DNA of 64,000 nt from Bacteroidota bacterium (GTDB lineage Bacteria > Bacteroidota > Ignavibacteria > UBA10030 > UBA8401). The stretch spans positions 95,663-159,662 of the forward strand of contig JAQCAB010000002.1 of assembly GCA_027622375.1 (NCBI GenBank), given 5' to 3'. Below are positions 3,046 to 63,701 of the stretch, piece by piece. Both the position numbers and the translations under genes were made by a program. The notes beneath the pieces were generated by a model. The model was given only the letters and a program-made list of their open reading frames with translations, was not told the DNA's origin and searched no databases. Every line of letters starts with the position of its first letter. Position 1 is the first letter of the stretch.

Positions 3046-4686
3046 TTGGCATACTTAGTTACAGCTCGTAAATATCGACCACAAATTTTTGAAGATGTTG
3101 TTGGTCAGCAACACATTACAACAACTTTACGAAATGCAATTGCTCAAGAAAGATTAAGTCATGCATATGTTTTTAGTGGTGGAAGAGGTTCGGGTAAAAC
3201 TACAACTGCGAGAATTTTAGCGAAAGCAATTAATTGTTCAACTCCACAAAATTTTAATCCTTGTAATAAATGTGATTCTTGTTTTGAAATTACTGATGGC
3301 CGCTCGCTTGATGTAATTGAAATTGATGGCGCATCAAATAGGAGTGTTGAAGAAATTCAAAAAATTCGTGAGGGAGTGAGATACATGCCTAATCGTGGCA
3401 AGTATCGTGTTTACATTATTGATGAAGTCCACATGTTGACTATGCATGCTTTTAACGCGCTTTTAAAAACTTTAGAAGAGCCACCAACACACATAGTTTT
3501 TATTTTTGCAACAACCGAAATTCAAAAAGTTCCAACAACTATTTTATCAAGATGTCAACGTTATGATTTTAGAAGAATTAGTGTTGATGATATAATTTTA
3601 AAATTGGAACAAATTGCAATTGAAGAAAAAATTTCAATTGATAAACCATCTTTATTAATTCTTGCAAAAAAAGCAGATGGCGCAATGCGTGATGCGCAAA
3701 GTTTATTCGATCAAGTTGTTTCTTCATGCGGGACAAAAATTACCGCCGATCAAGTTGTGTTAACTTTAAATTTAATTGATACAGAAATATTTTTCCGTGT
3801 CTCTGAAGCAATTTCGCATCGAGATACAACTGAAGTATTAACTTTAATTGATGAAGTTATCCAGCGTGGCTTCGATATTAAAGAATTTGTTATGGGGTTA
3901 ATCGAACATTTTAGAAACATGTTGATAATTAATTCAAATGCATCACCATCATTACTTGCAGTTTCAGAATTTTACATTTCTAAATATCAACAAGAAAGTA
4001 AAACCTTTACAGAGTTTGACATTTTAAGAATTATTCAAATTTTAGGAAAACTTGAAACAGGTATTAAATATGCAACACAACCTCGCTTTAAACTTGAAGC
4101 AACATTTGTGCAACTTACAAAAATGGAATCAGTAAAAGATATTTCAACACTACTTGCTGAACTACAAGAGTTAAAAAAAAACCCCTTTTTTGAAGGATCG
4201 TTAAATAAAAAAGTAAAAACCGAAACCTTACAAACTCCAAATTTAACTAAAACAGAAAAAGTATTACCAGAAAAAATAGTTTTAGAACCAATCCAAACAA
4301 TAAATCAAGATGTAAAATCTGAATTAAAAATTGGAATTTTAAAAATCAACTGGGATTTAATTGTTAAAGAAGCATCAACAAAAAAAATGTCACTCGGTAG
4401 TATTTTATCGCATGTTGAACCAAATGAAATATTAAATGGAAGTTTACAAATTAATTGTGGCGACGATTATCATTTTTCAGCAATTAAAATAAACAGAGAA
4501 TTTATTTCGGGATTAATTAAAGATTTATTTAAAGTTAATTTAAGAATCGAACCAATTTTAATAAAAAATGAAGTTATTGTCGAAACGCAAGTTTCTGCAA
4601 ATGGGGACAAAAAAGAGGAAGTAGATCCAAGAGAAAAAATTATTTTGGATATTTTATATACAAAGTTTGCCGCCGAGCCATTATAA
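3046..4686 (+). CDS. dnaX: DNA polymerase III subunit gamma/tau
   Basis: 'RKYRPQIFEDVVGQQHI', 'GGRGSGKTTTARILAKAINC', and the zinc module 'CNKCDSC'. Typical clamp-loader domains I-III followed by a C-terminal tau region. Confidence 0.93.
   Translation: MAYLVTARKYRPQIFEDVVGQQHITTTLRNAIAQERLSHAYVFSGGRGSGKTTTARILAKAINCSTPQNFNPCNKCDSCFEITDGRSLDVIEIDGASNRSVEEIQKIREGVRYMPNRGKYRVYIIDEVHMLTMHAFNALLKTLEEPPTHIVFIFATTEIQKVPTTILSRCQRYDFRRISVDDIILKLEQIAIEEKISIDKPSLLILAKKADGAMRDAQSLFDQVVSSCGTKITADQVVLTLNLIDTEIFFRVSEAISHRDTTEVLTLIDEVIQRGFDIKEFVMGLIEHFRNMLIINSNASPSLLAVSEFYISKYQQESKTFTEFDILRIIQILGKLETGIKYATQPRFKLEATFVQLTKMESVKDISTLLAELQELKKNPFFEGSLNKKVKTETLQTPNLTKTEKVLPEKIVLEPIQTINQDVKSELKIGILKINWDLIVKEASTKKMSLGSILSHVEPNEILNGSLQINCGDDYHFSAIKINREFISGLIKDLFKVNLRIEPILIKNEVIVETQVSANGDKKEEVDPREKIILDILYTKFAAEPL
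4172..4193 (+). promoter_or_regulatory. Putative dnaX recoding site: in-frame A9 run (slippery heptamer A_AAA_AAA) with a UGA stop 5 codons into the -1 frame
   Basis: The sequence 'tta aaa aaa aac ccc ttt ttt gaa' sits at about codon 377. The -1 frame reads AAA AAA AAA CCC CUU UUU UGA. This is analogous to the E. coli dnaX frameshift and the Thermus A9 transcriptional slippage. Confidence 0.4.
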
Positions 4687-4687
4687 A

Positions 4688-5962
4688 ATGATTTTAATAA
4701 TGAAAATATATTTTACACTTTTTATAATCATTTTTCCGAATTTAATTGCAGGAGAAAAACTTTTAATCCCGATGGATTTAAAACAAACAAATCACTTAAA
4801 AGCTTATGGAATTGCTTATTGGGCGCTGACAAAAGGATTGCAAATTGAGTGGTTGTTAAATTATAGAGGAGGATCTTTTTTGTGCGACAATCTTTCTATG
4901 ATTCAAAAAGAAATGCGAATCAGGGAAGTTTACTTTGAAGATATCTCAATTTCAAATGCAGCAAAAATTTATTCTGAAATCGGAAGCGAATCATCAAACG
5001 CCGAAGTAATTTTACTTGAAAAAGCTCCGCGCATTGCTGTGTATGTAACTCCAAATATTAAACCATGGGATGATGCGGTTACAATGGCTCTCGAATATTC
5101 TGAAATTAAATATGATAAAATTTGGGATGACGAAGTTTTGAATGGGGCGCTAAAAAATTATGATTGGCTTCATCTGCATCATGAAGATTTTACAGGACAG
5201 CATGGAAAATTTTATGCATCCCAACATTCTTCTCCATGGTATATTGAACAGCAAATCCTTTACGAAAAAAAAGCTCATGAATTAGGGTTTAAAAAAGTAT
5301 CTGCTCTTAAAAGAGAAGTTGCTCATCAAATTCGTAATTACATTGGTAGTGGTGGATTTTTATTTGCAATGTGTTCAGCAACAGATAGTTATGATATTGC
5401 TCTTTCGGCAAGTGAAGTTGATATTTGCGATGTTGTATTTGATGGGGATGGGGTTGATAAAAATGTGCAATCAAAATTAAATTTTAATGAAACTATTGCA
5501 TTTCAAAATTTTACAATTGATACAAATCCATTTAGATACGAATATTCCGATATTGATTTACCGCAAAGCGATCCTGTTCCAATGAGAGATGCTTCAACAG
5601 ATTATTTTTCGCTTTTTGAATTTTCAGCCAAACATGATCCAATCCCGACAATGTTAACTCAAAACCATGTAAATTTATTAAAAGGATTTATGGGGCAAAC
5701 AACTGCTTTCAATCGGAAAACAATAAAACCACATGTATTAATTTTGGGCGAAAGACAAGGAAGCGATGAAGTAAAGTATTTGCATGGTAATTATGGGAGA
5801 GGAACTTTTACATTTTATGCAGGGCATGACCCTGAGGATTACCAACATGCAATTGGGGATCCACCAACAGATTTAAATTTGCATAAAAACTCTCCAGGTT
5901 ATAGAATTATTTTAAATAACATTCTGTTCCCCGCAGCAAAAAAGAAACAACAAAAAACTTAA
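4688..5962 (+). CDS. Hypothetical exported protein (N-terminal signal peptide, function unknown)
   Basis: A long ORF begins 'MKIYFTLFIIIFPNLIAG' right after the dnaX stop. I recognise no motif with confidence. The start is uncertain (4667, 4688 or 4700). Confidence 0.4.
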   Translation: MILIMKIYFTLFIIIFPNLIAGEKLLIPMDLKQTNHLKAYGIAYWALTKGLQIEWLLNYRGGSFLCDNLSMIQKEMRIREVYFEDISISNAAKIYSEIGSESSNAEVILLEKAPRIAVYVTPNIKPWDDAVTMALEYSEIKYDKIWDDEVLNGALKNYDWLHLHHEDFTGQHGKFYASQHSSPWYIEQQILYEKKAHELGFKKVSALKREVAHQIRNYIGSGGFLFAMCSATDSYDIALSASEVDICDVVFDGDGVDKNVQSKLNFNETIAFQNFTIDTNPFRYEYSDIDLPQSDPVPMRDASTDYFSLFEFSAKHDPIPTMLTQNHVNLLKGFMGQTTAFNRKTIKPHVLILGERQGSDEVKYLHGNYGRGTFTFYAGHDPEDYQHAIGDPPTDLNLHKNSPGYRIILNNILFPAAKKKQQKT

Positions 5963-5976
5963 AATAAATTTAAAAT

Positions 5977-7065
5977 TTATTTTAAAAAGTTCAGACAAAA
6001 AGTAATTAAAAGTGCGTTTATAAAGTCTATAAAAAAAGCACCAACCATCGGAATAACCAAAAACGCACGATATGCTGGTCCATATTTATCTACTAATACA
6101 CGCATATTAGCCATTGCATTTGCAGTAGTGCCAAGCATAAACCCAACAAAACCTGAACTCATAACTGCAGCTTCGTAATCTTTTCCCATAAATTTATAAA
6201 TTACAAAAACGGAAACCACTAAAATTAAAATTATCTGGAAAAACATTATTACAATTAAAGGAAGCACGAGTCCGGAAAGTTCCCAAAGTTTTAAAGTCAT
6301 GAGCGCCATTACTAAAAAAAGTGATAAAGCTGCATTACCGATGTCATCAATTACATCCTGCGAAAGTCCAATCCAATTTGTTGCATCGTCAATATTTCTG
6401 ATAAGTGAAGCGATAAGCATTGCGCCAATATATGGTGGTAATATCCAGCCAATTGATTTAAACCAATCACTAATTAAACCACCAACCCACATTGCAAAAA
6501 GAATTACAACTAAATTTTTTAAAAGCCAATATGTTTCTTTGTCTTCTCCTTTTGGAGATGATTTTTGATTTAAAGAAATATGAGGCTCAATAATATTTTC
6601 GGCAGTTACATTAATTTGTGAAGATGAAAAATTATTTTTTGATCGTAAATTAAATTTAGTTATTAAATAAGTTCCAACAGGGCCACCAATTAATCCACCA
6701 CTAATAATTCCAGTCATCCCAGCAGCAACTGCAATTGTAGCTGCACCAACAACTCCTGCGTTTTCAAAAAGAGGAGCAAAAGCCAGTCCAGTTGCCGGGC
6801 CGCCTGTTAAAGTTACCGAACCGCTTAATACACCAAATAGTGGTGGAAGTCCAAATAATGGAGCAATTGCAATACCAACTACATTTTGGCAAATAGCAAT
6901 AATTGAAGAAATGATGGTGAATAAAACAACCTGCGGTCCTCCGATTTTTAATATTCCTGCCAATTCCTTAGAAATATGGAAGAAGATTGTTTTAGGATCC
7001 TCTATCAATAATTGTTTTATGCTGGCTAATGTGTATGTATCTGGATCACCGATTATGGTGGATTT
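5977..7065 (-). pseudogene. gltS: Sodium/glutamate symporter GltS, 3' portion (codons about 54 to end) separated from its 5' end by a foreign insert
   Basis: Collinear with E. coli GltS: 'GVLSGSVTLTGGPATG', 'SLFLVMALMTLKLWEL' and 'FLVIPMVGAFFIDFINALLI' match 'GLLAGSITLSGGHGTG', 'SLFLAMALMGLKLWEL' and 'FLVVPMVGAFFIDIVNALVI'. The ORF-track start at 7104 (MET...) lies in insert-derived sequence. Confidence 0.8.
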
Positions 7066-7109
7066 ATACTTGAATTGGGTGTCTTTTATTGAGCCAGTCT
7101 CCATGACTG

Positions 7110-7133
7110 CCTAGTATAGTGAGCTATACTAGG
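7110..7133. repeat. Perfect palindrome CCTAGTATAG-tgag-CTATACTAGG (10-bp stem, 4-nt loop) just downstream of the nhaC-like stop
   Basis: Read directly from the sequence. It is followed on the + strand by T-rich 'tttgtcatggttt'. It could act as a terminator for the minus-strand antiporter gene. Confidence 0.6.
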
Positions 7134-7149
7134 TTTGTCATGGTTTAAA

Positions 7150-9060
7150 TTATGCGAACAGCAGGGTAACGAGTGTCCAGCAAATCGCTGCAAGTATGGT
7201 CGCCATTCCAGCAGGTACAACCTGAGTTTTAACGTGATCCATCAGGTCGCAACCCGTGCACATGGAGCTTAAAATTGTGGTGTCAGAAATTGGGGAACAT
7301 TGGTCGCCGATTACGCTACCATTTAATACGGTTGCAAAACACACTGCCATAAAGAAGGCGGGGTGTGCTAACTCTGAGTTTTGGGCAACGGCCCACGCAA
7401 GTGGCATTGCTAATGGAAATGCTACGGCGTAAGTTCCCCAACTTGTTCCCGTTGAGAATGCGATTAGAATAGTAAGGCCTAGCAAGATGGTAGGTAATAA
7501 CCAAAATGCAATTGATGTGCCGAGTAATTCAACCAAGTAGATTCCACCACCGGTTTGTTGGCTAATAGACCCTATTGTGATGGCTAAAATTAGAATGACA
7601 GATCCTAATACAACGCCTTTTAAACCTTCACCGATGCCTTCAATTAGTTCGGTTACATTCAAACCGCGCAACAGTGCTAGTAAACCAGCTACGATTACAG
7701 CGGCGCCAAATCCCCATCGTACTTGCGGTGATCCAGTCGCGATAAATGTACCAATAGATATGCCAATCAGTGTGACTAGTGGTAAGAAAAAGTCAATTAC
7801 GTGCGGTTTGTAGTGTGCTGGAACGTCTGAGCTATGCAGTTCTTTTGCGCTTAATGGTTTTGCTTGTGGGCCATCAAGTTCGCCTGTTTCTCTTGACCGT
7901 TTTATGGCGGCTTTCATGCGTTTACCTAAGAATGGCGCTTTGTCGATACAAAGTAGGAATGTGCCAAGAACAGCAAAAATGGCGTAAAAACTGAGTGGGG
8001 CGCTTTGGAAGAAGAATCGTAGACGGTCATGTTCAGTGGCAAGAAAGGAAACCCCAGAGACGTATAAGAAGGCCTGTATGTAACCTGGCCACGCATTGAA
8101 TGCTAATAAACAGGCAATAGGAGAGGCTGTTGAGTCTACTATATAAGAGAGTTCCTCATGAGAAATGTTTTCCTTATCTGCAATCGGTTTCACAGTTGTG
8201 CCAACTAAAACGGTACTCATTGTACCACCCTGAAAAAATATAATGCCAAGCATCCACGCGACTAGTCGGGCTGTTTTTGGCCCTTTAACAACATATTTGG
8301 TCATCAGTTCGGCAAATGCTTTTGCGGCACCTGTTCGTGCCCAAATACCCATTAATCCGCCTAACATCCATAGGTATAGTAATAATATTCCAGCCCCACT
8401 TTTACTCATCATCGTTTCTAATAGGACGGCGTCTGATAGGTCAAACATGCCCAATAGAAAGGCGCCTACCACAATACCGCTAAACAGAGATGTGACGGGT
8501 TCGCGTGTTAACCAACACATTATGATGGCAACGAAGGCAGGTAATAATGACCAAAATCCCCAGTGACGTGTGGATTTATATTTGTAGTATTGGTCTATTG
8601 TTGTTCCGTTTACATTGGTGCTTTCATATACATATTCTTCTTCAGGTATTGGTTGGTTGTTTAATACCAGTTGGTCAATATTTGTTTTGGTAAGTTGCGC
8701 CTCTGCAATTGGTACTGCATTCTCAATGGTTTTAGGCTTGCCTTTAAACTTGTAGTAACGGCTACCGTCTTCTGCAATTTGGGTGTCTAGAGTGACCCGT
8801 TCGACGGTCCAGGTTGGGTCTACTTTGAAATGAATGAATAAACTTAATACTAACGCAACAATGAAGATATATAACGCTGGGCTAAATAGCATTTTGCGTA
8901 AGCCAGGAAGACCTATGCTATGCAAGAGTCCTTCTTGGTGTCGAGCTTCCTCATCACCATATACAAATGAATCGTGATGCACATGATCGTCTTGTTCAGA
9001 ATTTGATGTTGGTTGATTGTTACTCATAATTGGTAAAACTCCCTTGTGTTTCGTTGGCAT
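7150..9060 (-). CDS. nhaC: NhaC-family Na+/H+ antiporter with an N-terminal extension of about 190 aa, in a compositionally foreign (higher-GC) segment
   Basis: Multi-TM core running from 'WSLLPAFVAIIMCWLTREP' to 'ILAAICWTLVTLLFA' is typical of NhaC. GC and codon usage are clearly different from the flanks. The ATG at 9058-9060 is preferred over the track's TTG at 9081. Confidence 0.75.
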   Translation of the reverse strand: MPTKHKGVLPIMSNNQPTSNSEQDDHVHHDSFVYGDEEARHQEGLLHSIGLPGLRKMLFSPALYIFIVALVLSLFIHFKVDPTWTVERVTLDTQIAEDGSRYYKFKGKPKTIENAVPIAEAQLTKTNIDQLVLNNQPIPEEEYVYESTNVNGTTIDQYYKYKSTRHWGFWSLLPAFVAIIMCWLTREPVTSLFSGIVVGAFLLGMFDLSDAVLLETMMSKSGAGILLLYLWMLGGLMGIWARTGAAKAFAELMTKYVVKGPKTARLVAWMLGIIFFQGGTMSTVLVGTTVKPIADKENISHEELSYIVDSTASPIACLLAFNAWPGYIQAFLYVSGVSFLATEHDRLRFFFQSAPLSFYAIFAVLGTFLLCIDKAPFLGKRMKAAIKRSRETGELDGPQAKPLSAKELHSSDVPAHYKPHVIDFFLPLVTLIGISIGTFIATGSPQVRWGFGAAVIVAGLLALLRGLNVTELIEGIGEGLKGVVLGSVILILAITIGSISQQTGGGIYLVELLGTSIAFWLLPTILLGLTILIAFSTGTSWGTYAVAFPLAMPLAWAVAQNSELAHPAFFMAVCFATVLNGSVIGDQCSPISDTTILSSMCTGCDLMDHVKTQVVPAGMATILAAICWTLVTLLFA

Positions 9061-9074
9061 GTTGAATTGTAACT

Positions 9075-9477: not shown

Positions 9478-11196
9478 ATGAAGTTATTAAAATATATTTT
9501 ACTCACAAGTTTTACATTAATTTATTTTGGCTGCGGAGTTACATCTGAAAAAACCCAACAAAATAAAAAAAGCAATCCCCCTAAACGTGAGCTCTCAGCA
9601 AAAGATCAAGCAAAAGCATTGCAATTTTATATTGATGGGAATGAAAAAGAATCCAAAAGAGATTTCTCTGGTGCTATAATTGAGTATTTGGAAGCATTGC
9701 GATTAGATGATAATGATGCAATTTATTTTGCGCTGGCTAAAAACTATGCGGTGTTGAATAAAAATGAGCTGGCAAAGCAAATGCTTTTAAAAGCAATCGA
9801 GAAAGATTCAACACAAAAGGATTATTTTTTAATGCTTGGAGAAGTTCATCTTGCTCTAAATGAAACCGATTCGGCATTAATTCAATTTCAAAATGTTATA
9901 AAAATTGATCCTGAAAATCTTCAATCGATGGTTGGAATTTTAAGTTTAACAGAAAAAACAAAACCACTTATTGCGATTGAAATGTGTAAAAAAATAATTA
10001 ACCAAATTGGCTTTGAAAGAGAAATTTATACTCAGCTAGCAACACTTTATATTAATTTAGAAAAATATGAGGAAGCGACAGAAATTTTTAGCGAATTATT
10101 AAAGCGTGATGAAAACAACAAACCACTTTTGCAAGTTTATATTGACATGCTAATTAGATCGCAAAAATATGATAAGGCCACAGAAAAACTTAAAAAAATA
10201 GTTACAAATAACCCTGATGACGTTGAGGCATTAGCTGTTTTAGCTGATGTTTATTTAAAACAAAATAAGTGGGATGAAGTTGTTCCAATTTTAGAACAAA
10301 TTATTTCGAATGATACAATTGCAATTGATTACAGATTTAGAGCTGCATTAGTTTATTTTACGAGAGCGGAAGTAGATTCAACGGTTTTACAGATTGCAAA
10401 AAAACACTTCATTAATCTTTCACGAAGGGAAGAGAAAGATTGGCGTCCACAATTTTATCTTGGAATAATTTACTCGATTGAAAAAAATGATACTCTCGCA
10501 AAAAATATGTTTGAAAAAGTTACATCACTTGCAACATGGCATTCTGATGCATGGAGTTATATAGCTGCAATTTATTTTGACCGTAAAGAATATAAACAGA
10601 TGGAACAAATTTTAACGAAAGCAATTAATTACGTTAAAAATGATGATAGATTATTTTATTTATTGGGACTCGCATATTCGCAATTAAAAGAAAACCAAAA
10701 AGCAATTTCGAGTTATGAAAAAGCCAGAAAAATCAATCCAAAGAATCTCAATAATTTATCATCACTCGGGCTTGAATATGATAATTTAAAAGAATTTAAA
10801 AAGTCAGATGAAGTTTATGAAGAGGTGTTAAAAATTGATTCAAATAATATTTTAGTTTTAAATAACTATGCTTATAGTTTATCTGAAAGAGGAATTAATT
10901 TAGACAAAGCTCTTATAATGTCTAAAAAATCTATCGAAAGAGATTCCACAAACAGTTCATTTTTAGATACAATTGGTTGGATTTATTTTAAAATGGGAAA
11001 TTTTGATTTGGCGGAAAAATTTATAGAAAAGTCAATTTCAAAAGGTGAAGTTAATTCAATCGTTTATGAACATCTTGGAGATGTTTATGCAAAGAAAAAA
11101 GAAACCACTAAGGCAAAAGCTTGGTGGAGTAAAGCTCTTGAAAAAGATCAAAATAATTCTGTATTAAAAGAAAAAATTTTACGTAGTGGATTATGA
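9478..11196 (+). CDS. Tetratricopeptide-repeat lipoprotein
   Basis: Signal peptide with lipobox 'YFGCGV', then many TPR-like helical repeats. First gene of a conserved TPR/DUF4292/M23 trio. Confidence 0.8.
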   Translation: MKLLKYILLTSFTLIYFGCGVTSEKTQQNKKSNPPKRELSAKDQAKALQFYIDGNEKESKRDFSGAIIEYLEALRLDDNDAIYFALAKNYAVLNKNELAKQMLLKAIEKDSTQKDYFLMLGEVHLALNETDSALIQFQNVIKIDPENLQSMVGILSLTEKTKPLIAIEMCKKIINQIGFEREIYTQLATLYINLEKYEEATEIFSELLKRDENNKPLLQVYIDMLIRSQKYDKATEKLKKIVTNNPDDVEALAVLADVYLKQNKWDEVVPILEQIISNDTIAIDYRFRAALVYFTRAEVDSTVLQIAKKHFINLSRREEKDWRPQFYLGIIYSIEKNDTLAKNMFEKVTSLATWHSDAWSYIAAIYFDRKEYKQMEQILTKAINYVKNDDRLFYLLGLAYSQLKENQKAISSYEKARKINPKNLNNLSSLGLEYDNLKEFKKSDEVYEEVLKIDSNNILVLNNYAYSLSERGINLDKALIMSKKSIERDSTNSSFLDTIGWIYFKMGNFDLAEKFIEKSISKGEVNSIVYEHLGDVYAKKKETTKAKAWWSKALEKDQNNSVLKEKILRSGL

Positions 11197-11939
11197 GGAA
11201 ATTACTAATTCTTCTTGTTGTATTTTTTGGATGTGCTTCTGTAAAAGAAGTTGAAGAAATCAATTTAAATAACAAGAGTTTATTACCAGAAGAAGTAATT
11301 AATAATGTAAATAGTTTTGCATATACAATTAACAACTGCAAAACAAATGGAACAATTGAAGTTAATTTTGACTCACTTTCAATTACTTTAGAATTTACTT
11401 CTTACTTAAAAAATAGAGATACTTTGAAAATTGATTTAACTGGTCCATTTGGTTTGGAATTGGGAAGTGCATTAATTACAAAAAATTATTTTTTGATTTA
11501 TAATAAATTTGAGAATATAGTTTTAGAGGGGATTGTAGATTTAAGCAAATTACCGATTTCTATCCCACCATCTTTTAAAGTTGATGAATTATTTTCATTT
11601 TTTGCTAATGTTAGATTACTTCCATTAAATTCAGAAATAACTACAAACGAAATAAATAAAAGCTTTATAATTAAAACTAATTCTAATAATTTATCATCAA
11701 CTTATTTTGTAGAAAATGGAATGTTGTCAAAAGTATCACACAACAAAGAAACAAAAAACATATTAAATGAATATTATAGCTATGAAAATAATAATTTAAA
11801 ATATTTCAACTCAGTAGTATTGGAAACCCCGCAGAATAAAAGACAAATCAAAATAAACTATAACTCGATTGAATATAATATTGAAATGCCATCGCTTATG
11901 TTTGAAGTTGATAATAAGGCAAAGCGAAAATCAATATGA
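11193..11939 (+). CDS. DUF4292-like (LolB-fold) outer membrane lipoprotein
   Basis: Lipobox 'FFGCASV', about 250 aa, overlapping stop/start with its neighbours. The position between the TPR protein and the M23 peptidase matches the common FCB-group operon. Confidence 0.45.
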   Translation: MRKLLILLVVFFGCASVKEVEEINLNNKSLLPEEVINNVNSFAYTINNCKTNGTIEVNFDSLSITLEFTSYLKNRDTLKIDLTGPFGLELGSALITKNYFLIYNKFENIVLEGIVDLSKLPISIPPSFKVDELFSFFANVRLLPLNSEITTNEINKSFIIKTNSNNLSSTYFVENGMLSKVSHNKETKNILNEYYSYENNNLKYFNSVVLETPQNKRQIKINYNSIEYNIEMPSLMFEVDNKAKRKSI

Positions 11940-29502: not shown

Positions 29503-30237
29503 TTATTTAATAATTTTTGCCACAGCAGTAATTGCCGCAGTTTCTGAACGCAGTCGTCTTAAACCTAAACTAATAGTTTTAAAATTATTTTTAACCGCTG
29601 ATTCAATTTCGTTATCAGTAAAACCACCCTCAGGACCAATTGCAATTAAAATTTTTTTATAATTTTTTGATGATAAAAATAATTCATTTATATTTTTTAA
29701 TTGATCAGTTTTTTCGTGTGGGATTATTTTTAAATCAAAATTTTCAGAAGTTGAAATTAGCTCATTATAATCAATACAATTTTTTATTAATGGCAACCTA
29801 CATCTTGAAGACTGTTTCATTGATGAAAGAGCAATTTGCTGCCACCTTTTTATTTTGTCGTTTTTAGAAATAGTTCTATTTGAGATAAATGGTTGAAAAG
29901 AAAAACCCCCAAGCTCGGTACATTTTTCAATAATAAAATCTACACGCGAAGGATTTTTTAATAACGCAAATGCTAATGTAATTTCTAATTCAGCTTCATT
30001 GCAATTTAAATGCGTTGAAATTATTTTACACTCAATTTTAGATTTATCAATTTTTGTTATTTCAGATTTTATTGCAACACCACTTCCATTTACAACCCAA
30101 ATTAATTCACCAATTGATTTTCTTAAAACACGAGAAATATGATTTGCTTCATCACTTTCCAGAAATAAATTATCTGAAAAAATATTTTTATTATCTGTAT
30201 AAAAAAATTCTTCTTGCATTTTAAAAGGCTGCTCCAA
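29503..30237 (-). CDS. rsmE: 16S rRNA (uracil1498-N3)-methyltransferase RsmE
   Basis: C-terminal 'LIAIGPEGGFTDNE' RsmE signature. Confidence 0.8.
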   Translation of the reverse strand: MEQPFKMQEEFFYTDNKNIFSDNLFLESDEANHISRVLRKSIGELIWVVNGSGVAIKSEITKIDKSKIECKIISTHLNCNEAELEITLAFALLKNPSRVDFIIEKCTELGGFSFQPFISNRTISKNDKIKRWQQIALSSMKQSSRCRLPLIKNCIDYNELISTSENFDLKIIPHEKTDQLKNINELFLSSKNYKKILIAIGPEGGFTDNEIESAVKNNFKTISLGLRRLRSETAAITAVAKIIK

Positions 30238-31591
30238 TATCCCAATAAAAATTTCCTTTTGTTAATCCTCTATTTCCAAAACCATATTCTGTTCTTACAA
30301 CTAAACTATAGGGCAACAAAAAATGTAATCCAGCGCCATATCCTGTATAAAAAAAAGTTTTAGATATTTTATCTTTACCCCACCAAGCTGCAGATGTATT
30401 TGCAAAAAATGAGAGATAAGTTGCAAATCTAATATCTCTAAACTCCTCAAACGGAATATCTGCAAAATAAAAATATTTAGGTTTAATAATTGGATAATGT
30501 AATTCTGTTGCAAAGGAGCTCAAATTTTCTCCTTCCAAAACATTAAAATAATGCCCTTGTAATCTATCTTGATACCCAAAATATTGATGATCATAAATCG
30601 GAATAAATTTATTTTGAGCGACATTTATAAATATTTTTGCTGTTAAAATATTATCTCCTAAAATTTGTTTGTAAAAACGGGAATCAATAAGGTATCGAAA
30701 ATAATTTGTGGAGACATCCAAGTTATAATATTGATGAAGTTGGTATTTTTGAAAACTACCCGAACTTGGATATTCAATTAAATTGCGCGAGTCGTAATTA
30801 AACTCAATTATTGTTGTAAAAACTTTATCATTAAAATCAGTAGAAGATAAAAGATCGGGAATATTGTAATTCAACTTTATTTGCTTCCAACCAAATAAAA
30901 TTGAAGAGCGTGTATAAACTGAAAATCTTTTACCAATCGTTGCATTAAATAAATTTGTTTTGAATTTAATTGAATCGCCTTCAAATTTTTTACTTCGATT
31001 ATATAAATCAGAGGAAGCTATTTTATAATTACCAAAAATATTATCATCTGAATTTAAATACGGAATATTATGAAAGATAAAAATTGTTGGATCGTAACCC
31101 CGGACTACTTCAAAAAACAAATTTTCTTTTTGTTCTCTAAAATTTATATGTGCAAATCCAACACCATAAAATAATTTATCTGTTTCTTTATCCCGAAAAC
31201 CAAAAATAGGATAAACCAAATAATTTAATCTTTCAACAACATTAATATGTAAATCTGCAGTAGGTAAAAGCGAATCACTATTTGTTTGTTCAATTAATAA
31301 TTCAACTTTTGTAAAAATTCCTAAACTGTAAATTCGTTCGCTATTATAATTTAAATCTTGATGTGTTATTAATGAGTTGGTAAATATTGTAAGCTCGCGT
31401 GTAATTACAAATGACTTTGTTGAACGATTTCCTTGAATTACAATATTTTTTAAATAATAAAATGAATCAGGGAAAGCATATGTTGGACTAATTTTATTTT
31501 GCCCAAAAATATTATTAATTAAAACTATAAATAAAAATAAAAAATATTTGAAAAGTTTTAAAATAAATTTCGATGCTCCACTAAAATACAT
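30221..31591 (-). CDS. Omp85/BamA-family outer membrane protein (single POTRA)
   Basis: N-terminal signal peptide, a POTRA-like segment, a beta-barrel, and a C-terminus ending 'GNFYWDIGAAF'. Confidence 0.55.
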   Translation of the reverse strand: MYFSGASKFILKLFKYFLFLFIVLINNIFGQNKISPTYAFPDSFYYLKNIVIQGNRSTKSFVITRELTIFTNSLITHQDLNYNSERIYSLGIFTKVELLIEQTNSDSLLPTADLHINVVERLNYLVYPIFGFRDKETDKLFYGVGFAHINFREQKENLFFEVVRGYDPTIFIFHNIPYLNSDDNIFGNYKIASSDLYNRSKKFEGDSIKFKTNLFNATIGKRFSVYTRSSILFGWKQIKLNYNIPDLLSSTDFNDKVFTTIIEFNYDSRNLIEYPSSGSFQKYQLHQYYNLDVSTNYFRYLIDSRFYKQILGDNILTAKIFINVAQNKFIPIYDHQYFGYQDRLQGHYFNVLEGENLSSFATELHYPIIKPKYFYFADIPFEEFRDIRFATYLSFFANTSAAWWGKDKISKTFFYTGYGAGLHFLLPYSLVVRTEYGFGNRGLTKGNFYWDIGAAF

Positions 31592-44663: not shown

Positions 44664-44699
44664 AAAAAGGCACTCTTTTACGAGTGCCTTTTTAAATTT
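44664..44699. terminator. Bidirectional rho-independent terminator between convergent apaG and the EF-hand gene
   Basis: AAAAAA-GGCACTC-ttttac-GAGTGCC-TTTTT: a 7-bp GC-containing stem flanked by an A-run and a T-run. Confidence 0.7.
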
Positions 44700-44714: not shown

Positions 44715-45269
44715 TTAATCCTTAAATTCTTCTTTGTTCAAAGACCCATCACCATTTTTATCACGTTTTTTAAATTCATCTTCCCAATTTGGGTCACTTC
44801 CGAATGCCATTTTGGCTTCATTTTTACTGACTTTGCCATCATTATTTTTATCTACAGTTTCAAATGATGGGCCTTGCTGACCGCCTTGCTGACCGCCTTG
44901 TTGACCACCTTGCTGACCGCCTTGTTGACCACCTTGCTGACCACCTTGTTGACCACCACCAGTTCCTTGTCGTGCTAAAAATTCATTTTTATCTAAAACA
45001 CCATCACCATTTTTATCACGTTTATTAAATTTATCTTCCCAATTTGTGTCACTTCCGAATGCCATTTTAGCTTCATTTTTACTGACTTTGCCATCATTAT
45101 TTTTATCTACAGTTTCAAATGATGGGCCTTGCTGACCGCCTTGCTGACCGCCTTGTTGACCACCTTGTTGACCACCTTGTTGACCACCTTGTTGACCACC
45201 ACCAGTTGGAGGTTGATAACCACCTGGAGGACGTTGACCACCGCTACCTTGGCCAGCAGCTTTTTTATA
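44715..45269 (-). pseudogene. Secreted EF-hand repeat calcium-binding protein, 3' portion (distal to insert 2)
   Basis: EF-hand loops 'DKNNDGKVSKNE' and 'DKNGDGVLDKNEF' with GGQQ linker repeats. The frame is open upstream to 45278 with no start codon, and it continues the 46942-47220 fragment if the insert is removed. Confidence 0.7.
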
Positions 45270-45290
45270 ACATAAATTTTAAGTCGTGTC
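44795..45290. repeat. Near-identical tandem direct repeats of about 243 bp inside the EF-hand gene, containing (GGTTGNTGACC)n GGQQ-coding microrepeats
   Basis: 'gtcacttccgaatgccatttt(a/g)gcttcatttttactgactttgccatcattatttttatctacagtttcaaatgatgggccttgctgaccgcc...' occurs at about 44805 and again at about 45048. Confidence 0.8.
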
Positions 45291-45311
45291 AATCTAGACT
45301 ATTATCACAGG

Positions 45312-46637
45312 TTAAACGTCAAAAATCGAGTCTGGTTGAAGGGTTGCTTCCATTACGGTTTTCCATAAACGTCCATTAGGATCTACTCTATTCCGTGATT
45401 TTATAGCCATTTCTATAGGAACATTGATGAAATGATGATTCCAATACCCTATCATCATATTAGTTTTACCTGACATAGCAGCATGTACTGCATTTTGGCC
45501 TAGCTCTAAGCAATATGTGGAATCTATAGCATTTGCAGGTACTCCTCTTATTATATAGCTGGGATCTATATATTTAAGATTAATATTCCTGCCCTTATTC
45601 TTAAAGTACTCGGGAATCGTGCCTTTGAGATAAAGACCTATATCTCTTAATTTTAAATTCCCCGATTTATCCCTTTGCTCTAGATATGAATTGTTTTCCA
45701 TTAAATATTGTCCGGCACCTTCAGCTACAACTACAACTGCATGTCCTTTTCTGTCTAGGCGTTTTTCTAATGAGTTTAATAATCCGCCGCTACCTTCAAG
45801 TTTAAATGGGACTTCCGGGATTAGACAGTAATTTACATCTCTATTCGCTAATGTCGCATGGGCAGCGATATACCCGGAATGTCTGCCCATAAGCTTTACT
45901 AAACCTATACAATTTGGGGCTCCGCTCGCCTCTACATGGGCACAGGATATTACTGACATTGCTTTTTCAACTGCTGTTTGAAACCCAAATGACATTTTTA
46001 CATAATTAAGATCATTATCAATAGTCTTAGGTAAAGCGATTATAGAAATACCAAGGTTTTGATTTTTTATTTCTTCGTTTATTTCTTTTGCCCCTCGCAT
46101 TGTCCCATCGCCGCCAATGATAAATAAAATATTAATTTTATTTTTTTTCAATGTTTGTACTATGTCTTTAGTGTCCCGCGGCCCCCTTGAGGAGCCTAGT
46201 ACAGTACCACCAAGCCTATGTAAACCATCAACGTTTTCAACAGTTAAATTTAATGGTTCTTCTATAGAATCTTTTGTTATACCTAAGTACCCATACTTAA
46301 ACCCTAAGATCCTTCTTACTCCATACCTTTCACTAAGCTCTGAAACTATAGACTGTATAACATCATTGAGTCCGGGACATAGACCGCCGCATGTCACTAT
46401 ACCGCATGATATTTTTGGTGGGTCAAAATGGATTTTATCTTTAGGCCCTGCTATCTCGAAGAATGTAATACCGTTTTTCTTCTCTTCCTTTTCTAACTCA
46501 CTACTATGGGTATTGTATACTATACAATCGTCTCCAACAAAAGTTGAGCTTTTGCTAGAGCATAATGGTGAAGGTATCTTTGCTTCACCGACAGTATCTA
46601 TGTGTATTTTATTTATTTTAATAGTTTGTGCCTTAAG
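45312..46637 (-). CDS. pfk: 6-phosphofructokinase, plant/long-type ('GIVTCGGLCPGLN...GGDGT...MGR...PKTIDND'), in a foreign-composition segment with no canonical start codon
   Basis: All the PFK catalytic motifs are present. The in-frame 5' extension (80 codons, ending 'AGPKDKIHFDPPKISCGIV') is homologous to plant-type PFK N-termini but contains no ATG, GTG or TTG. The only alternate start is the GTG at 46395-46397, inside the conserved 'IVTCGG'. Confidence 0.7.
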   Translation of the reverse strand, partial: LKAQTIKINKIHIDTVGEAKIPSPLCSSKSSTFVGDDCIVYNTHSSELEKEEKKNGITFFEIAGPKDKIHFDPPKISCGIVTCGGLCPGLNDVIQSIVSELSERYGVRRILGFKYGYLGITKDSIEEPLNLTVENVDGLHRLGGTVLGSSRGPRDTKDIVQTLKKNKINILFIIGGDGTMRGAKEINEEIKNQNLGISIIALPKTIDNDLNYVKMSFGFQTAVEKAMSVISCAHVEASGAPNCIGLVKLMGRHSGYIAAHATLANRDVNYCLIPEVPFKLEGSGGLLNSLEKRLDRKGHAVVVVAEGAGQYLMENNSYLEQRDKSGNLKLRDIGLYLKGTIPEYFKNKGRNINLKYIDPSYIIRGVPANAIDSTYCLELGQNAVHAAMSGKTNMMIGYWNHHFINVPIEMAIKSRNRVDPNGRLWKTVMEATLQPDSIFDV

Positions 46638-46649
46638 TTACATAACCTA

Positions 46650-46941
46650 TTATTTACCGGCCCCACTCATAAACCCTGTTAATACATCATCAAATGTTGT
46701 GAAACTTTTAGTATAAAATGACTTCTGTTTTAAAGCATTACGCCATTTTACAACATTTTTATAAGGTGATATATCTAACCCGGATGCCTCTGAAGGATCA
46801 AGCATAGCTAATAAAGTTATATCTGCTAAACTAAAAGCCTCTCCTGACAAATATTCATTTTTTCCTAATTGCGCATCAACTATAGGCAAAAATCTGGCAT
46901 AAAATCTTATACCGTCTTTCTTCGATAGTTCATCAACTTCC
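46650..46941 (-). pseudogene. Glutathione S-transferase C-terminal-domain fragment (5'-truncated)
   Basis: 'RFYARFLPIVDAQLGKNEYLSGEAFSLADITLLAMLDPSEASGLDISPYKNVVKWRNALKQKSFY' is a GST alpha-helical C-domain with no thioredoxin-like N-domain. The part of the track ORF upstream of 46941 is spurious. Confidence 0.6.
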
Positions 46942-47220
46942 ATACCCATCATTATTTTTATCACGATTATCAAACTCAGTTTGCCAATTTGGATCGCCAC
47001 CAAATTTAGCTTTTGCTTCGTCCATACTAATTTTACCGTCGTGATTTGAATCAACATCACCAAATTGCATCGGTTGTTGACCACCACCTGGTGGAGGACC
47101 TTGTGGTGCGCCTCCCGGTGGATATTGACCCCCGGTTGGGGGTCGTGTTCCTCCCTGGCTATATGAGTCAACATATAGTATTAGAAGAAACAGAAAAACT
47201 AAACTTATTACATTTCTCAT
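46942..47220 (-). pseudogene. Secreted EF-hand repeat protein, 5' portion (signal peptide plus first EF-hand), truncated at insert 2
   Basis: 'MRNVISLVFLFLLILYVDSYSQ' signal peptide, a PPGG-rich linker and the EF loop 'DSNHDGKISMDEAKAKFGGDPNWQTEFDNRDKNNDG'. A strong SD 'AGGAGGT' lies upstream of the ATG. Confidence 0.7.
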
Positions 47221-47387
47221 TGTACCTCCTTAATAATTATTAATTAATGAACCATACTATTTTAATTCTAATTGAAAGTCAAGTTAAAAAAATCTTATGG
47301 TGATTTTAAACACACAATAACAAAAGTCTCAATAAACATTGAGCTTTTCTAATAAATTGTATAAATATTTTTAAAGTAATCCCATAA

Positions 47388-62450: not shown

Positions 62451-63701
62451 ATGAAGATTATTAAATTTTCATTTTCGGTTTTAATTTTTCTGATTTTTTT
62501 TAATTCCTGCACCGAACAAAAAGGTGAAAATGCTTACATAATTATTCCAGGTAATTATCAAGGAATGTATTATTACACTCGTACGCATGGTGGAGTTGAA
62601 GATGATGAAGGGCGCTCAATGGTAACATTATCTGATGGAAATGTTATGATTGTAGGGACTACAAATTCAATCGGCTCCGGTCAAAATGATGCTTGGCTTT
62701 TTAGTGCAGACTCAACAGGCAAACAATTAAGCACCCGACCGATTGGATCAAGTTTAAATGATAGAGCGTACTCAATTTCAAAAGCTTATGATGGTGGATT
62801 TTTAATTGCGGGGACAAGTAACTCATTAAGCTCTCCATCAAATGATGATATGTGGATTATTAAAACATATCCAACGGGAGCAGAAGAATGGCAAACTACA
62901 ACAAGCAGTACAAAAGTTGATAGTGGTTTTTCTGCAATACAAACTACCGATTCATTAATTGCTTTACTTGGCGGAACATCTAAAAATATTACAGGTGATT
63001 TTGATGTTTGGTTTTCAAAATTAAATAAACTTGGAGAAAAACAATACGACTCTGTTTATGGTGGAAGTGGAAATGATATCGGAACGCAAATAATTCAAAC
63101 ATCAGATAAAAATTTATTATTCATTGCAACAACAACTTCATACGGACAAGGGCAGGAAGAAATTTGGTTGGTTAAAACAACTTTAAATGGAACTCGGCTT
63201 TGGTCAAAAACTTTTGGTAGAAATTTAAAAGATGTTCCCTTTAAAGTTTTAGAAACAATTGATGGTTATTTAATTGTTGGATATTCAAATTCGTACACAG
63301 TTTCGCTTGGTGGATTTGGTGGCGAAGATGTTTTTTTAATCAAAACAGATAAAACAGGAACCCGACTTTGGGATCGGCTTTTTGGCGGGAGTGGTGATGA
63401 TAGAGGTTACTCAATTATTTCAACTTCGGATGGTGGCTTTGCAATTACAGGATCAACAAAATCTTTCGGGAGTGGGAACGAAGATGTTTGGTTAATTAAA
63501 CTTGATGCAAATGGAATTAAATTATGGAGCCGTACTTTTGGTGGTAGCGCAAGTGATATTGGATATGATCTTGTTCAAATGCAAGATGGTGGTTTTACAA
63601 TTACGGGGTCAACTACTTCGCTTGGTGCAGGTAAAAAAGATTTATGGTTAATTCGAACTGATAGAAATGGGAATATTACAAATAACGATCAGCAACCATG
63701 A
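62451..63701 (+). CDS. SBBP (seven-bladed beta-propeller) repeat lipoprotein
   Basis: Lipobox 'FFNSCTE' and about 7 repeats of 'GGSGNDxGYSI..TSDGGFxITGSTxSxGSGxxDxWLIK'. Confidence 0.6.

What the first reader, a model, noticed from the sequence alone, without database searches (positions are those of the whole stretch)
44715..47220. Secreted EF-hand repeat protein gene is interrupted by a second foreign-composition insert (about 1.67 kb)
Fragment 47220..46942 encodes a signal peptide, a PPGG-rich linker and a first EF-hand loop ending ...DNRDKNNDG-Y. Fragment 45269..44715 continues as Y-KKAAGQGSGGQRPPGGYQPPTGGGQQ... followed by two more EF-hand modules. It has no start codon of its own: the frame is open to 45278 with no ATG. 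Deleting 45270..46944 rejoins the two halves in frame across a shared ATA (Tyr) codon, giving one gene of about 280 aa. The intervening DNA differs in GC and codon usage: ATA, AGA and GGG codons are frequent, versus ATT and AAA in the host.
Basis: seen in the sequence. Interest (0 to 1): 0.85.

Follow-up and report, generated by a model that had tools for sequence, protein, structure and literature searches.

The report
Foreign DNA fragment splitting an EF-hand gene
A 1.67-kb piece of another bacterial phylum's chromosome, carrying half a GST gene and a whole phosphofructokinase gene, sits inside a secreted calcium-binding protein gene of an uncultured Bacteroidota bacterium, with no trace of a mobile element; it looks like a rare natural case of gene transfer by simple break-and-join.

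Summary
On the minus strand, 47220..46942 and 45269..44715 are the two halves of one secreted EF-hand repeat gene. A syntenic relative (GCA_945903295.1) carries the uninterrupted 219-aa orthologue between the same neighbours.

The 1,675 bp in between hold the last ~97 codons of a GST gene, a complete PFK ORF and 42 nt of 3' flank. This block is foreign in three ways:
- **Tetranucleotides:** it is one of only two outlier regions in the 64 kb.
- **Codon usage:** Ile ATA is 0.64 against 0.19 in host genes (p≈1e-14), and AGG, GGG and AAG are also enriched.
- **Relatives:** the best PFK relatives are Omnitrophota-type at 60-66% identity, and their contigs share the same codon bias.

An independent Logan assembly crosses both junctions at 100% identity. 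There is no transposase, inverted repeat, attC-like hairpin, integrase, tRNA or Rfam element, and one insert end cuts a gene.

The rejoin is in frame but not scarless. At least 4 codons that complete the EF loop are missing, and the shared TAT is only 3 nt.

Best reading: illegitimate (end-joining type) capture of a random foreign DNA fragment, which inactivated the host gene and placed the PFK in sense orientation behind its conserved promoter. A second, analogous event from a different donor lies at ~7-9 kb. This is a known kind of event, but an unusually clean natural example.

The parts
47254..47282 (-). Promoter-like site (TTGACT-17 nt-TAGTAT) of the EF-hand gene, followed by an AAGGAGG ribosome-binding site just before the ATG
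   Evidence: Consensus scan. The same TTGACT...TA(G/C)TAT and AAGGAG arrangement is conserved upstream of the orthologue in L006. Function is inferred, not shown.
46942..47220 (-). 5' fragment of the host EF-hand gene: signal-peptide-like N-terminus, PPGG linker, EF loop 1, and EF loop 2 up to DKNNDGY. As it now stands the ORF runs two more codons (GS) to TGA 46935-46933, giving 95 aa.
   Evidence: It aligns to residues 1-90 of orthologue P0121. The exact 95-aa ORF is also present in the ENA and Logan assemblies.
45270..46944 (-). Foreign insert of 1,675 bp at 35.9% GC. Its placement is ambiguous by 3 nt because TAT occurs at both ends, and the 3' boundary is uncertain by about 10 nt.
   Evidence: Composition and codon usage. 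No blastn match in plasmids or phages. No inverted or direct terminal repeats. No Rfam hit.
46650..46941 (-). 3' part of a glutathione S-transferase gene (C-terminal domain only, about 97 codons plus stop). About 117 N-terminal codons are missing, cut by the insert's 5' end.
   Evidence: Pfam GST_C at 34.2 bits, matching profile positions 32-89 of 93. It aligns to residues ~136-190 of 210-216-aa solved GSTs.
45312..46622 (-). Complete 6-phosphofructokinase ORF (436 codons from ATT 46622-46620; NCBI's annotation starts at ATA 46616-46614 for 434 aa). There is no canonical start: the upstream ATG 46643-46641 is followed directly by TAA. AAGG lies 8 nt upstream of the ATT.
   Evidence: Pfam PFK at 216 bits. 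All family-invariant residues are kept and the length equals that of relatives. Best relatives are Omnitrophota-type at 60-66% identity. Closest solved structure is trypanosomatid ATP-PFK, E=5e-101. PGAP protein P0251.
45270..45311 (-). 42 nt of donor 3' flank after the PFK stop codon, with no terminator-like hairpin
   Evidence: Fold z-score -0.18. No terminator-like site here.
44715..45269 (-). 3' fragment of the host EF-hand gene: linker KKAAGQGSGGQRPPGGYQPPTGG, GGQQ repeats and two EF-hand pair modules (a 255-bp tandem duplication). It has no start codon or signal peptide of its own.
   Evidence: Pfam EF-hand_1 at 62 bits. It aligns to residues ~100-219 of P0121.
44664..44693 (-). Intrinsic-terminator-like hairpin plus T-run after the EF-hand gene. 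It is the only such site on this strand between the promoter and here.
   Evidence: inverted repeat I1.

Best explanation
A linear fragment of chromosomal DNA from a distantly related bacterium was captured at a break in the second EF loop of module 1 of a secreted EF-hand gene. The donor was Omnitrophota-like, with an ATA/AGG/GGG-rich codon dialect. The recipient is a low-GC Bacteroidota genome. Joining was illegitimate (non-homologous or microhomology-mediated): at most 3 nt of shared sequence, about 12-18 nt of host coding sequence lost, arbitrary endpoints in the donor (one inside a GST gene, the other 42 nt past the PFK stop), and no element-encoded machinery.

Shown:
- The split gene, and an intact orthologue at the same locus in a relative.
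- The foreign composition and phylogenetic affinity of the insert.
- The truncated GST.
- The absence of mobile-element hallmarks.
- Both junctions reproduced in independent assemblies.

Inferred:
- The break-and-join mechanism and the host deletion.
- The consequences. The EF-hand gene now yields at most a 95-aa secreted stub with a broken second loop, and its 3' part is silent. The foreign PFK lies in sense orientation inside an intact transcription unit (conserved promoter, no terminator until 44693-44664), so it is probably transcribed by read-through. Translation would depend on a non-ATG start (ATT or ATA after AAGG). Whether the PFK is used or is dead cargo is open, and I put it at roughly even odds.
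For: - Intact syntenic orthologue P0121. The orthologue reads DGY-VDKDEFFADMGTGGQN-PPGGYQPPTG where the rejoined window gene reads DGY-KKAAGQGSGGQR-PPGGYQPPTG.
- Logan contig L004 spans window 49883->45174 at 100% identity, crossing both junctions. The ENA scaffold and the NCBI 166-kb MAG contig carry the same arrangement.
- The two breakpoints map about 12-18 nt apart in the host gene, in the same orientation. Two independent chimeric joins would not do this.
- The insert's PFK occurs only in this context. Its 90% cluster holds only these contigs, and the next relative is 66% identical.
- Codon usage and tetranucleotides are foreign, and they match contigs carrying the closest PFK relatives.
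- The GST lacks ~117 N-terminal codons.
- There are no terminal repeats and no motif shared among the four junctions of the two islands. There is no attC- or terminator-like hairpin, no Rfam element, no tRNA, and no mobility gene anywhere in the window.
- There is no match to plasmids or phages.
- A second event of the same anatomy lies at ~7-9 kb.
Against: - All assemblies probably derive from one read set, so they are computationally but not experimentally independent. I could not map reads or compare coverage of the insert and its flanks.
- No empty-site allele of this same species was found (the search needed an exact match, so it says little).
- The exact donor, with GST upstream of PFK, was not found. 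PFK neighbourhoods in the nearest relatives differ.
- The size of the host deletion rests on a 49%-identical orthologue and on paralogous modules in a linker-variable gene.
- Ku/LigD or competence genes of the host could not be examined.
Confidence: 0.75

Rival explanations
1. Metagenome assembly chimera: the insert belongs to another organism in the sample and was threaded into the Bacteroidota contig by the assembler.
For: The source is a short-read metagenome, and the inserts have distinct composition. The ENA scaffold ends at window 6946, close to island 1's 3' junction (coordinates derived), which hints at a graph branch there. All assemblies share the same reads.
Against: - Three different assemblies give identical junctions. 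The Logan contig passes both junctions of insert 2 with k=31.
- The path leaves and re-enters the host within ~12-18 nt of the same codon, on the same strand, after 1.67 kb. A chimera would need long shared k-mers at both ends, yet the junction flanks share at most 3 nt.
- No separate donor contig with this PFK exists in the collection.
Confidence: 0.07
2. Remnant or cargo of a mobile genetic element (IS or composite transposon, integron cassette, integrative island, group II intron) that inserted by its own site-specific machinery.
For: Gene-sized inserts (1.7 and 2.0 kb), each carrying one complete ORF in the same orientation as the target gene, loosely recall gene cassettes. Island 1 has a strong hairpin after its ORF. 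TAT is present at both ends of insert 2.
Against: - No transposase, integrase or RT is present in the insert or anywhere in 64 kb.
- There are no terminal inverted repeats.
- A 3-nt repeat together with loss of host sequence is not a target-site duplication.
- The 5' end cuts a GST gene mid-domain.
- Insert 2 has no hairpin at its 3' end (z -0.18).
- No motif is shared among the four junctions.
- There are no Rfam intron or ribozyme hits and no plasmid or phage matches.
Confidence: 0.05
3. The block was not captured de novo in this lineage. It arrived by ordinary homologous recombination from a closely related strain that already carried the split allele, so the illegitimate event happened elsewhere or earlier.
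For: Homologous replacement between strains is far more frequent than double illegitimate recombination. The PFK start codon is already non-canonical, and the GltS fragment next to island 1 looks degenerate, so the events need not be very recent.
Against: This only moves the founding event. The junction anatomy still requires an illegitimate join at some point. No other strain with the allele was found.
Confidence: 0.1
4. Native arrangement: two separate EF-hand genes flanking native GST and PFK genes, with no insertion.
For: The EF-hand gene is modular, varies in length among relatives, and has its own unusual composition.
Against: - The 3' fragment has no start codon or signal peptide.
- The 5' fragment stops inside an EF loop.
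- The GST lacks its N-terminal domain.
- The orthologue is a single uninterrupted gene at the same locus.
- The codon usage of GST and PFK differs from the host and from the EF-hand gene itself.
Confidence: 0.02

Closest known systems
Double illegitimate recombination / integration of fully heterologous DNA during natural transformation (Acinetobacter baylyi work of Hulter & Wackernagel 2008; from my own knowledge, not read here)
   Same: Foreign DNA with no homology to the recipient is joined at both ends through zero to a few nucleotides of microhomology. A small recipient deletion often accompanies it, and no element-encoded enzymes are involved.
   Different: The known case was seen in the laboratory under selection at extremely low frequency. 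Here it is inferred in a wild, uncultured Bacteroidota genome with a cross-phylum donor. The uptake route (transformation, vesicles, transduction) is unknown, and there are two events within 64 kb.
Homology-facilitated illegitimate recombination (HFIR; de Vries & Wackernagel 2002, Prudhomme et al. 2002; own knowledge)
   Same: Foreign DNA is acquired through an illegitimate junction at microhomology, with deletion of recipient DNA.
   Different: HFIR needs a homologous anchor on one side of the incoming molecule. Here both ends of the insert are non-homologous to the host: a GST coding sequence at one end and a donor intergenic flank at the other.
[quoted passage not shown] 2016, as described in bioRxiv 10.1101/2023.11.22.568220)
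   Same: Heterologous DNA anneals at microhomologies and is built into the chromosome, giving insertion-deletion scars.
   Different: SPDIR yields microindels of 3 to ~100 bp at frequencies around 1e-13 to 1e-12. This insert is 1,675 bp and carries a whole gene.
NHEJ / alternative end-joining capture of extrachromosomal DNA at a double-strand break (Ku-LigD systems; own knowledge)
   Same: Junctions have 0-3 nt of microhomology, a few host nucleotides are lost, and the captured fragment has arbitrary ends.
   Different: The presence of Ku/LigD or another end-joining pathway in this host could not be tested with a 64-kb window.
Integron gene cassettes and IS/composite transposons
   Same: Gene-sized insert carrying a complete ORF, in sense orientation behind a resident promoter.
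   Different: There is no attC, no integrase, no transposase, no terminal inverted repeats and no target-site duplication, and one end truncates a gene.

Membership tests
Illegitimate (non-homologous / microhomology) integration of foreign DNA | No extended homology between insert ends and target; at most a few nt of microhomology | tested here: met
   Only TAT (3 nt) is shared. Longest common words among junction windows are 6-9 nt against a null mean of 8.7.
Illegitimate (non-homologous / microhomology) integration of foreign DNA | Arbitrary endpoints in donor DNA (genes cut) | tested here: met
   The GST lacks ~117 N-terminal codons. The other end lies 42 nt past the PFK stop with no structured site.
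Illegitimate (non-homologous / microhomology) integration of foreign DNA | Small loss or filler of recipient sequence at the junction instead of a target-site duplication | tested here: met
   The rejoined gene is 4 residues shorter than orthologue P0121 at the junction. It lacks the [LV][DN]K[DNE]EF end of the EF loop found in all four intact modules. This is an inference from a 49%-identical orthologue.
Illegitimate (non-homologous / microhomology) integration of foreign DNA | Insert is of foreign origin | tested here: met
   Composition and codon usage. PFK relatives are Omnitrophota-type at 60-66% identity, and their contigs share the codon bias. The host relative L006 does not.
Illegitimate (non-homologous / microhomology) integration of foreign DNA | Host has a DNA-uptake and end-joining route (competence genes, Ku/LigD or equivalent) | not testable with these tools
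   Only 64 kb of the genome is available, and no such genes lie in it.
Transposable element (IS / composite transposon / MITE) | Transposase gene or terminal inverted repeats | tested here: not met
   Pfam finds only GST_C and PFK in the insert. There is no inverted repeat linking the two ends.
Transposable element (IS / composite transposon / MITE) | Target-site duplication | tested here: not met
   There is only a 3-nt TAT, and host sequence is missing rather than duplicated.
Integron gene cassette | attC hairpin at the 3' end and a complete promoterless ORF; integrase nearby | tested here: not met
   The 3' end fold has z -0.18. The 5' end carries a truncated gene. There is no integrase in the window.
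Genomic island / integrative element | Integrase, tRNA or att direct repeats at the borders | tested here: not met
   No tRNA in 64 kb, no integrase, no flanking direct repeats.
Group II intron or other self-splicing intervening sequence | Ribozyme structure and/or intron-encoded RT | tested here: not met
   No Rfam match at gathering thresholds, and no RT domain.
EF-hand calcium-binding proteins (host gene) | Paired 12-residue DxDxDG-type loops recognised by the Pfam EF-hand models | tested here: met
   The 3' fragment scores 62 bits on EF-hand_1 (cut-off 25.4) with 4 stretches. The 5' fragment alone scores 20.7 bits, below cut-off, but is 60-70% identical to module 1 of P0121. Calcium binding was not tested.
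Phosphofructokinase family PF00365 (cargo gene) | Full-length PFK domain with conserved active-site motifs (GGxxPGxN, GGDG, PKTIDND, MGR) | tested here: met
   216 bits against a cut-off of 30.9. All columns invariant among 8 relatives are kept. E=5e-101 to trypanosomatid ATP-PFK structures. A canonical start codon is missing. Activity and phosphoryl donor were not tested.
Assembly chimera | Junctions specific to one assembly, donor sequence also present on its own contig, breakpoints unrelated in the host | tested here: not met
   The junctions are identical in the ENA, Logan and NCBI assemblies. The PFK is found only in this context. The breakpoints are adjacent and co-oriented. Read-level support is not testable here.

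The most novel reading that the evidence does not exclude
This Bacteroidota lineage may acquire genes habitually by transposase-free capture of gene-sized foreign DNA fragments into dispensable, expressed genes in sense orientation. That would be a natural 'promoter trap' route of horizontal transfer. The window shows two such events from two different donors in 64 kb of otherwise housekeeping chromosome, both co-oriented with the split gene. If the rate held genome-wide there would be dozens of such scars. That would imply an unusually active end-joining or uptake pathway, or close physical association with donors such as ultra-small Omnitrophota.
Probability: 0.12. Interest if true: 0.75.

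Novelty: new member of a known kind. Interest (0 to 1): 0.45.

Why it matters
Most horizontally acquired genes are seen long after the event, inside islands or next to mobility genes, so how element-free DNA enters chromosomes in nature is mostly inferred from laboratory transformation experiments.

Here both junctions of a cross-phylum transfer are readable at nucleotide resolution. They show a truncated donor gene at one end, a small host deletion and no recombination machinery. An intact orthologue serves as the 'before' state.

That gives a concrete natural example of illegitimate integration. With the second event nearby, it also gives a testable hint that some uncultured lineages may do this often. 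In addition, it flags two genes in a public MAG that are pseudogenes: the EF-hand protein here, and the GltS-like symporter in the other compositionally foreign island at ~7-9 kb. It also flags a PFK whose annotation relies on a non-canonical start.

Tried and rejected
- Empty-site allele: searched JGI metagenomes with the two flanks joined by 0-30 nt and found none. The match had to be exact, so this says little.
- More orthologues: a degenerate DVDSNHDGKIS pattern returned only three unrelated EF-hand genes in high-GC genomes.
- Relatives in GTDB genomes: a scan with ApaG found only one (L011, Bacteroidota MAG), and its contig ends inside the repeat-rich EF-hand gene.
- Donor synteny: the neighbourhoods of the three closest long-contig PFK relatives have no GST upstream, so the donor was not identified.
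- blastn of the insert against plasmids and phages gave no match.
- cDNA or transcript-capture idea: insert 2 has no terminator-like 3' end, so I dropped it.
- Site-specific mechanism: no motif is shared among the four junctions.
- Frameshift explanation for the degenerate GltS segment next to island 1: no frame recovers the conserved peptide.
- Sample accessions were not found in the literature library. A Caspian Sea origin is my inference from the scaffold name and PMC5864207.
- The NCBI contig could not be retrieved through the look-up index.
- The 'insert1' line was read out of frame and should be ignored. One search holds for island 1.
Full report
**Observation.**
On the minus strand, an ORF starts at ATG 47220 behind an AAGGAGG ribosome-binding site. 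It encodes a signal-peptide-like N-terminus, a PPGG-rich linker, one EF loop (DVDSNHDGKISMDE) and the first seven residues of a second loop (DKNNDGY). It then reads GS and stops at 46935-46933.

A second open frame runs from 45278, just after a TAA, to 44715. It has no ATG until 45065. It reads (NLC)YKKAAGQGSGGQRPPGGYQPPTGGGQQ..., followed by two complete EF-hand pair modules. Pfam recognises EF-hands in both pieces: 62 bits in the 3' piece, and a sub-threshold 20.7 bits in the 5' piece. Removing 45270..46944 (1,675 nt) joins the two in frame into a 276-aa protein. The description is therefore accurate.

**What lies between the fragments.**
The intervening DNA contains four parts:
- **GST fragment.** The last ~97 codons of a glutathione S-transferase gene: GST_C at 34 bits, aligning to residues ~136-190 of 210-216-aa solved GSTs. 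About 117 N-terminal codons, including the catalytic domain, are absent.
- **Spacer.** 27 nt, from the GST stop codon (46652-46650) to the ATT at 46622-46620.
- **PFK.** A full-length phosphofructokinase ORF at 216 bits. Every residue invariant among eight relatives is kept. The closest solved structures are trypanosomatid ATP-PFKs at E=5e-101.
- **3' flank.** 42 nt with no significant hairpin.

The PFK has no canonical start. Relatives' Met aligns with ATT 46622-46620, which lies 8 nt after AAGG. NCBI's annotation begins at ATA 46616. The only upstream ATG is followed directly by TAA.

**Is it foreign?**
- A strand-symmetric tetranucleotide scan finds only two outlier regions in the 64 kb: ~6.6-9.2 kb and ~44.4-47.2 kb. 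Part of the latter signal comes from the host gene's own GGQQ repeats.
- Codon usage of the GST and PFK ORFs differs sharply from 30 host ORFs. Ile ATA is 0.64 vs 0.19 (p=1.5e-14), AGG 0.29 vs 0.04, GGG 0.27 vs 0.12 and AAG 0.25 vs 0.09. AGA does not differ.
- The best full-length PFK relatives (60-66% identity) are labelled Candidatus Omnitrophota, followed by Elusimicrobiota and Planctomycetes. None is labelled Bacteroidota.
- The contigs carrying those relatives show the same ATA/AGG/GGG/AAG bias. The host's relative L006 shows the host pattern.
- The host is a Bacteroidota MAG, going by the record titles and by the T9SS PorZ gene next door.

**Is the gene really one gene?**
The rejoined protein finds a 219-aa homologue, P0121 (E=1.6e-50). 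Its gene sits in GCA_945903295.1 between ApaG/WD40/Crp/PHP/PorZ/DUF3276/YceD on one side and Tmk/EamA/PriA on the other. This is the same neighbourhood as in the window, apart from two extra genes of native composition. P0121 aligns to both window fragments across the junction.

The alignment also shows that the excision is not scarless. The orthologue reads DGY-VDKDEFFADMGTGGQN-PPGGYQPPTG, while the rejoined window gene reads DGY-KKAAGQGSGGQR-PPGGYQPPTG. All four intact modules of the two genes continue after DG-x with [LV][DN]K[DNE]EF, which supplies the twelfth-position Glu of the loop. Module 1 of the window gene lacks that segment. I infer that about 12-18 nt of host DNA were lost at the insertion. 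The TAT present at both ends is then a 3-nt coincidence or microhomology, not a target-site duplication.

**Is it an assembly artefact?**
- The window is identical to ENA scaffold MEHR18-1_SAMN03444961_METAG-scaffold_1236. Its proteins also occur on a 166-kb NCBI MAG contig.
- The Logan assembly of run SRR2027830 is independent of these. Its 4,710-bp contig equals window 49883->45174 at 100% identity. It runs from host genes through the 5' junction, the entire insert and the 3' junction, into the 3' fragment.
- The Logan contigs break only inside the 255-bp tandem duplication of the host gene.
- The path leaves and re-enters the same host codon neighbourhood in the same orientation. This is not expected from two chimeric joins, and the junction flanks share no long k-mers.
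- The PFK's 90%-identity cluster contains only these contigs, so no free-standing donor contig exists in the collection.
- The remaining caveat is that all assemblies probably use the same reads, and I could not inspect read pairs or coverage.

**Mechanism.**
- Nothing in or near the insert belongs to a mobile element. There is no transposase, integrase or RT in the insert or in any large ORF of the window, which is ordinary core chromosome: Lon, DnaX, BipA, MreD, PBP2, RodA, Tig, ClpP, ClpX, the fatty-acid synthesis (Fab-type) genes, PriA and LepA.
- There is no tRNA and no Rfam element.
- There are no terminal inverted or direct repeats and no attC-like hairpin.
- There is no plasmid or phage match.
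- One insert end cuts a gene.

The anatomy fits illegitimate, end-joining-type capture of a random linear fragment of foreign chromosomal DNA at a break, with slight resection of the host ends. It is far larger than SPDIR microindels (3 to ~100 bp). It also lacks the one-sided homologous anchor of HFIR.

**Consequences (inferred).**
The EF-hand gene is inactivated: it can yield only a 95-aa stub with a broken loop, and its 3' part cannot be translated. The promoter (TTGACT-17-TAGTAT) and ribosome-binding site are conserved with the orthologue. The only terminator-like site on this strand lies after the original stop codon. The PFK therefore sits in sense orientation inside an intact transcription unit. 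Whether it is translated from ATT or ATA and used is open.

**Second event.**
At ~7.0-9.06 kb, a GltS-type Na+/glutamate symporter gene is split after ...FTICKSY(NST). Intact orthologues are 410 aa at 76% identity. The splitting DNA is 44% GC and carries a complete NhaC-family gene with its own ribosome-binding site and a strong downstream hairpin. It too is in the same orientation as the split gene.
- Its codon usage differs from insert 2, which implies a different donor.
- A conserved GltS segment cannot be recovered in any frame, so host sequence was lost there as well.
- The four junctions share no motif.
- Two co-oriented events are compatible with chance (p=0.25). They also suggest that only sense insertions behind an active promoter persist.

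**Verdict.**
It is a clean natural example of a known but rarely documented process, element-free illegitimate integration of cross-phylum DNA, and not a new kind of system. Its main value is as a nucleotide-resolution case with a 'before' state. It also gives a lead that this lineage may carry many such scars.

Noticed in passing
window ~7000-9065 (minus strand); GltS fragments 9233..~9065 and ~7025/6960..5977: A Na+/glutamate symporter (GltS-type) gene is split by a ~2-kb, 44% GC block. The block carries a complete NhaC-family Na+/H+ antiporter gene (625 aa from ATG 9027), co-oriented with the split gene. Its codon usage differs from the PFK insert, so the donor is different. Intact 410-aa orthologues exist (P0128-P0130).
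   Followed up: partly
window 7097-7143 (minus strand): A strong nested hairpin follows the NhaC-family stop codon (-24 kcal/mol, z -5.7, with no T-run after it). It could be a donor terminator or some other structured site.
   Followed up: partly
window ~6960-7050: The GltS 3' fragment reads IEDPKTIFFHISKELAG where all orthologues have the conserved (E/R)(K/D)PLMIAFF..IGFGAS. No frame recovers the conserved peptide. The ENA scaffold of the same sample starts at window 6946, just where clear homology resumes. This may be an assembly-graph branch, for example a coexisting uninterrupted allele.
   Followed up: partly
window 46611-46643: The PFK start region is anomalous: ATG is followed at once by TAA, and ATT sits where relatives have Met, 8 nt after AAGG. 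NCBI PGAP calls the protein from ATA (MDA0986265.1, 434 aa), while other gene callers use GTG 46397 and lose 80 conserved residues.
   Followed up: partly
window 44724-45200: The host EF-hand gene contains a 255-bp tandem duplication of a whole module (93-94% identity) and 12-nt GGQQ-coding arrays. The orthologue cluster shows 208-, 219- and 230-aa variants differing by an 11-aa NPPGGYQPPTG unit, plus a 98-aa collapsed form. The gene is length-hypervariable, and short-read assemblies break in it.
   Followed up: partly
L006 5085-7803 (relative GCA_945903295.1) versus window 47221-47387: The relative has two extra genes of native composition (an M14 peptidase and a Na+/sulfate-type symporter) between Tmk and the EF-hand gene. 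They are absent from the window, where only a 167-bp spacer remains.
   Followed up: partly
window 4667-5962, 11193-11939, 30221-31591, 62451-63701: Four sizeable ORFs (431, 248, 456 and 416 aa) have no Pfam match at E<=1e-8.
   Followed up: no
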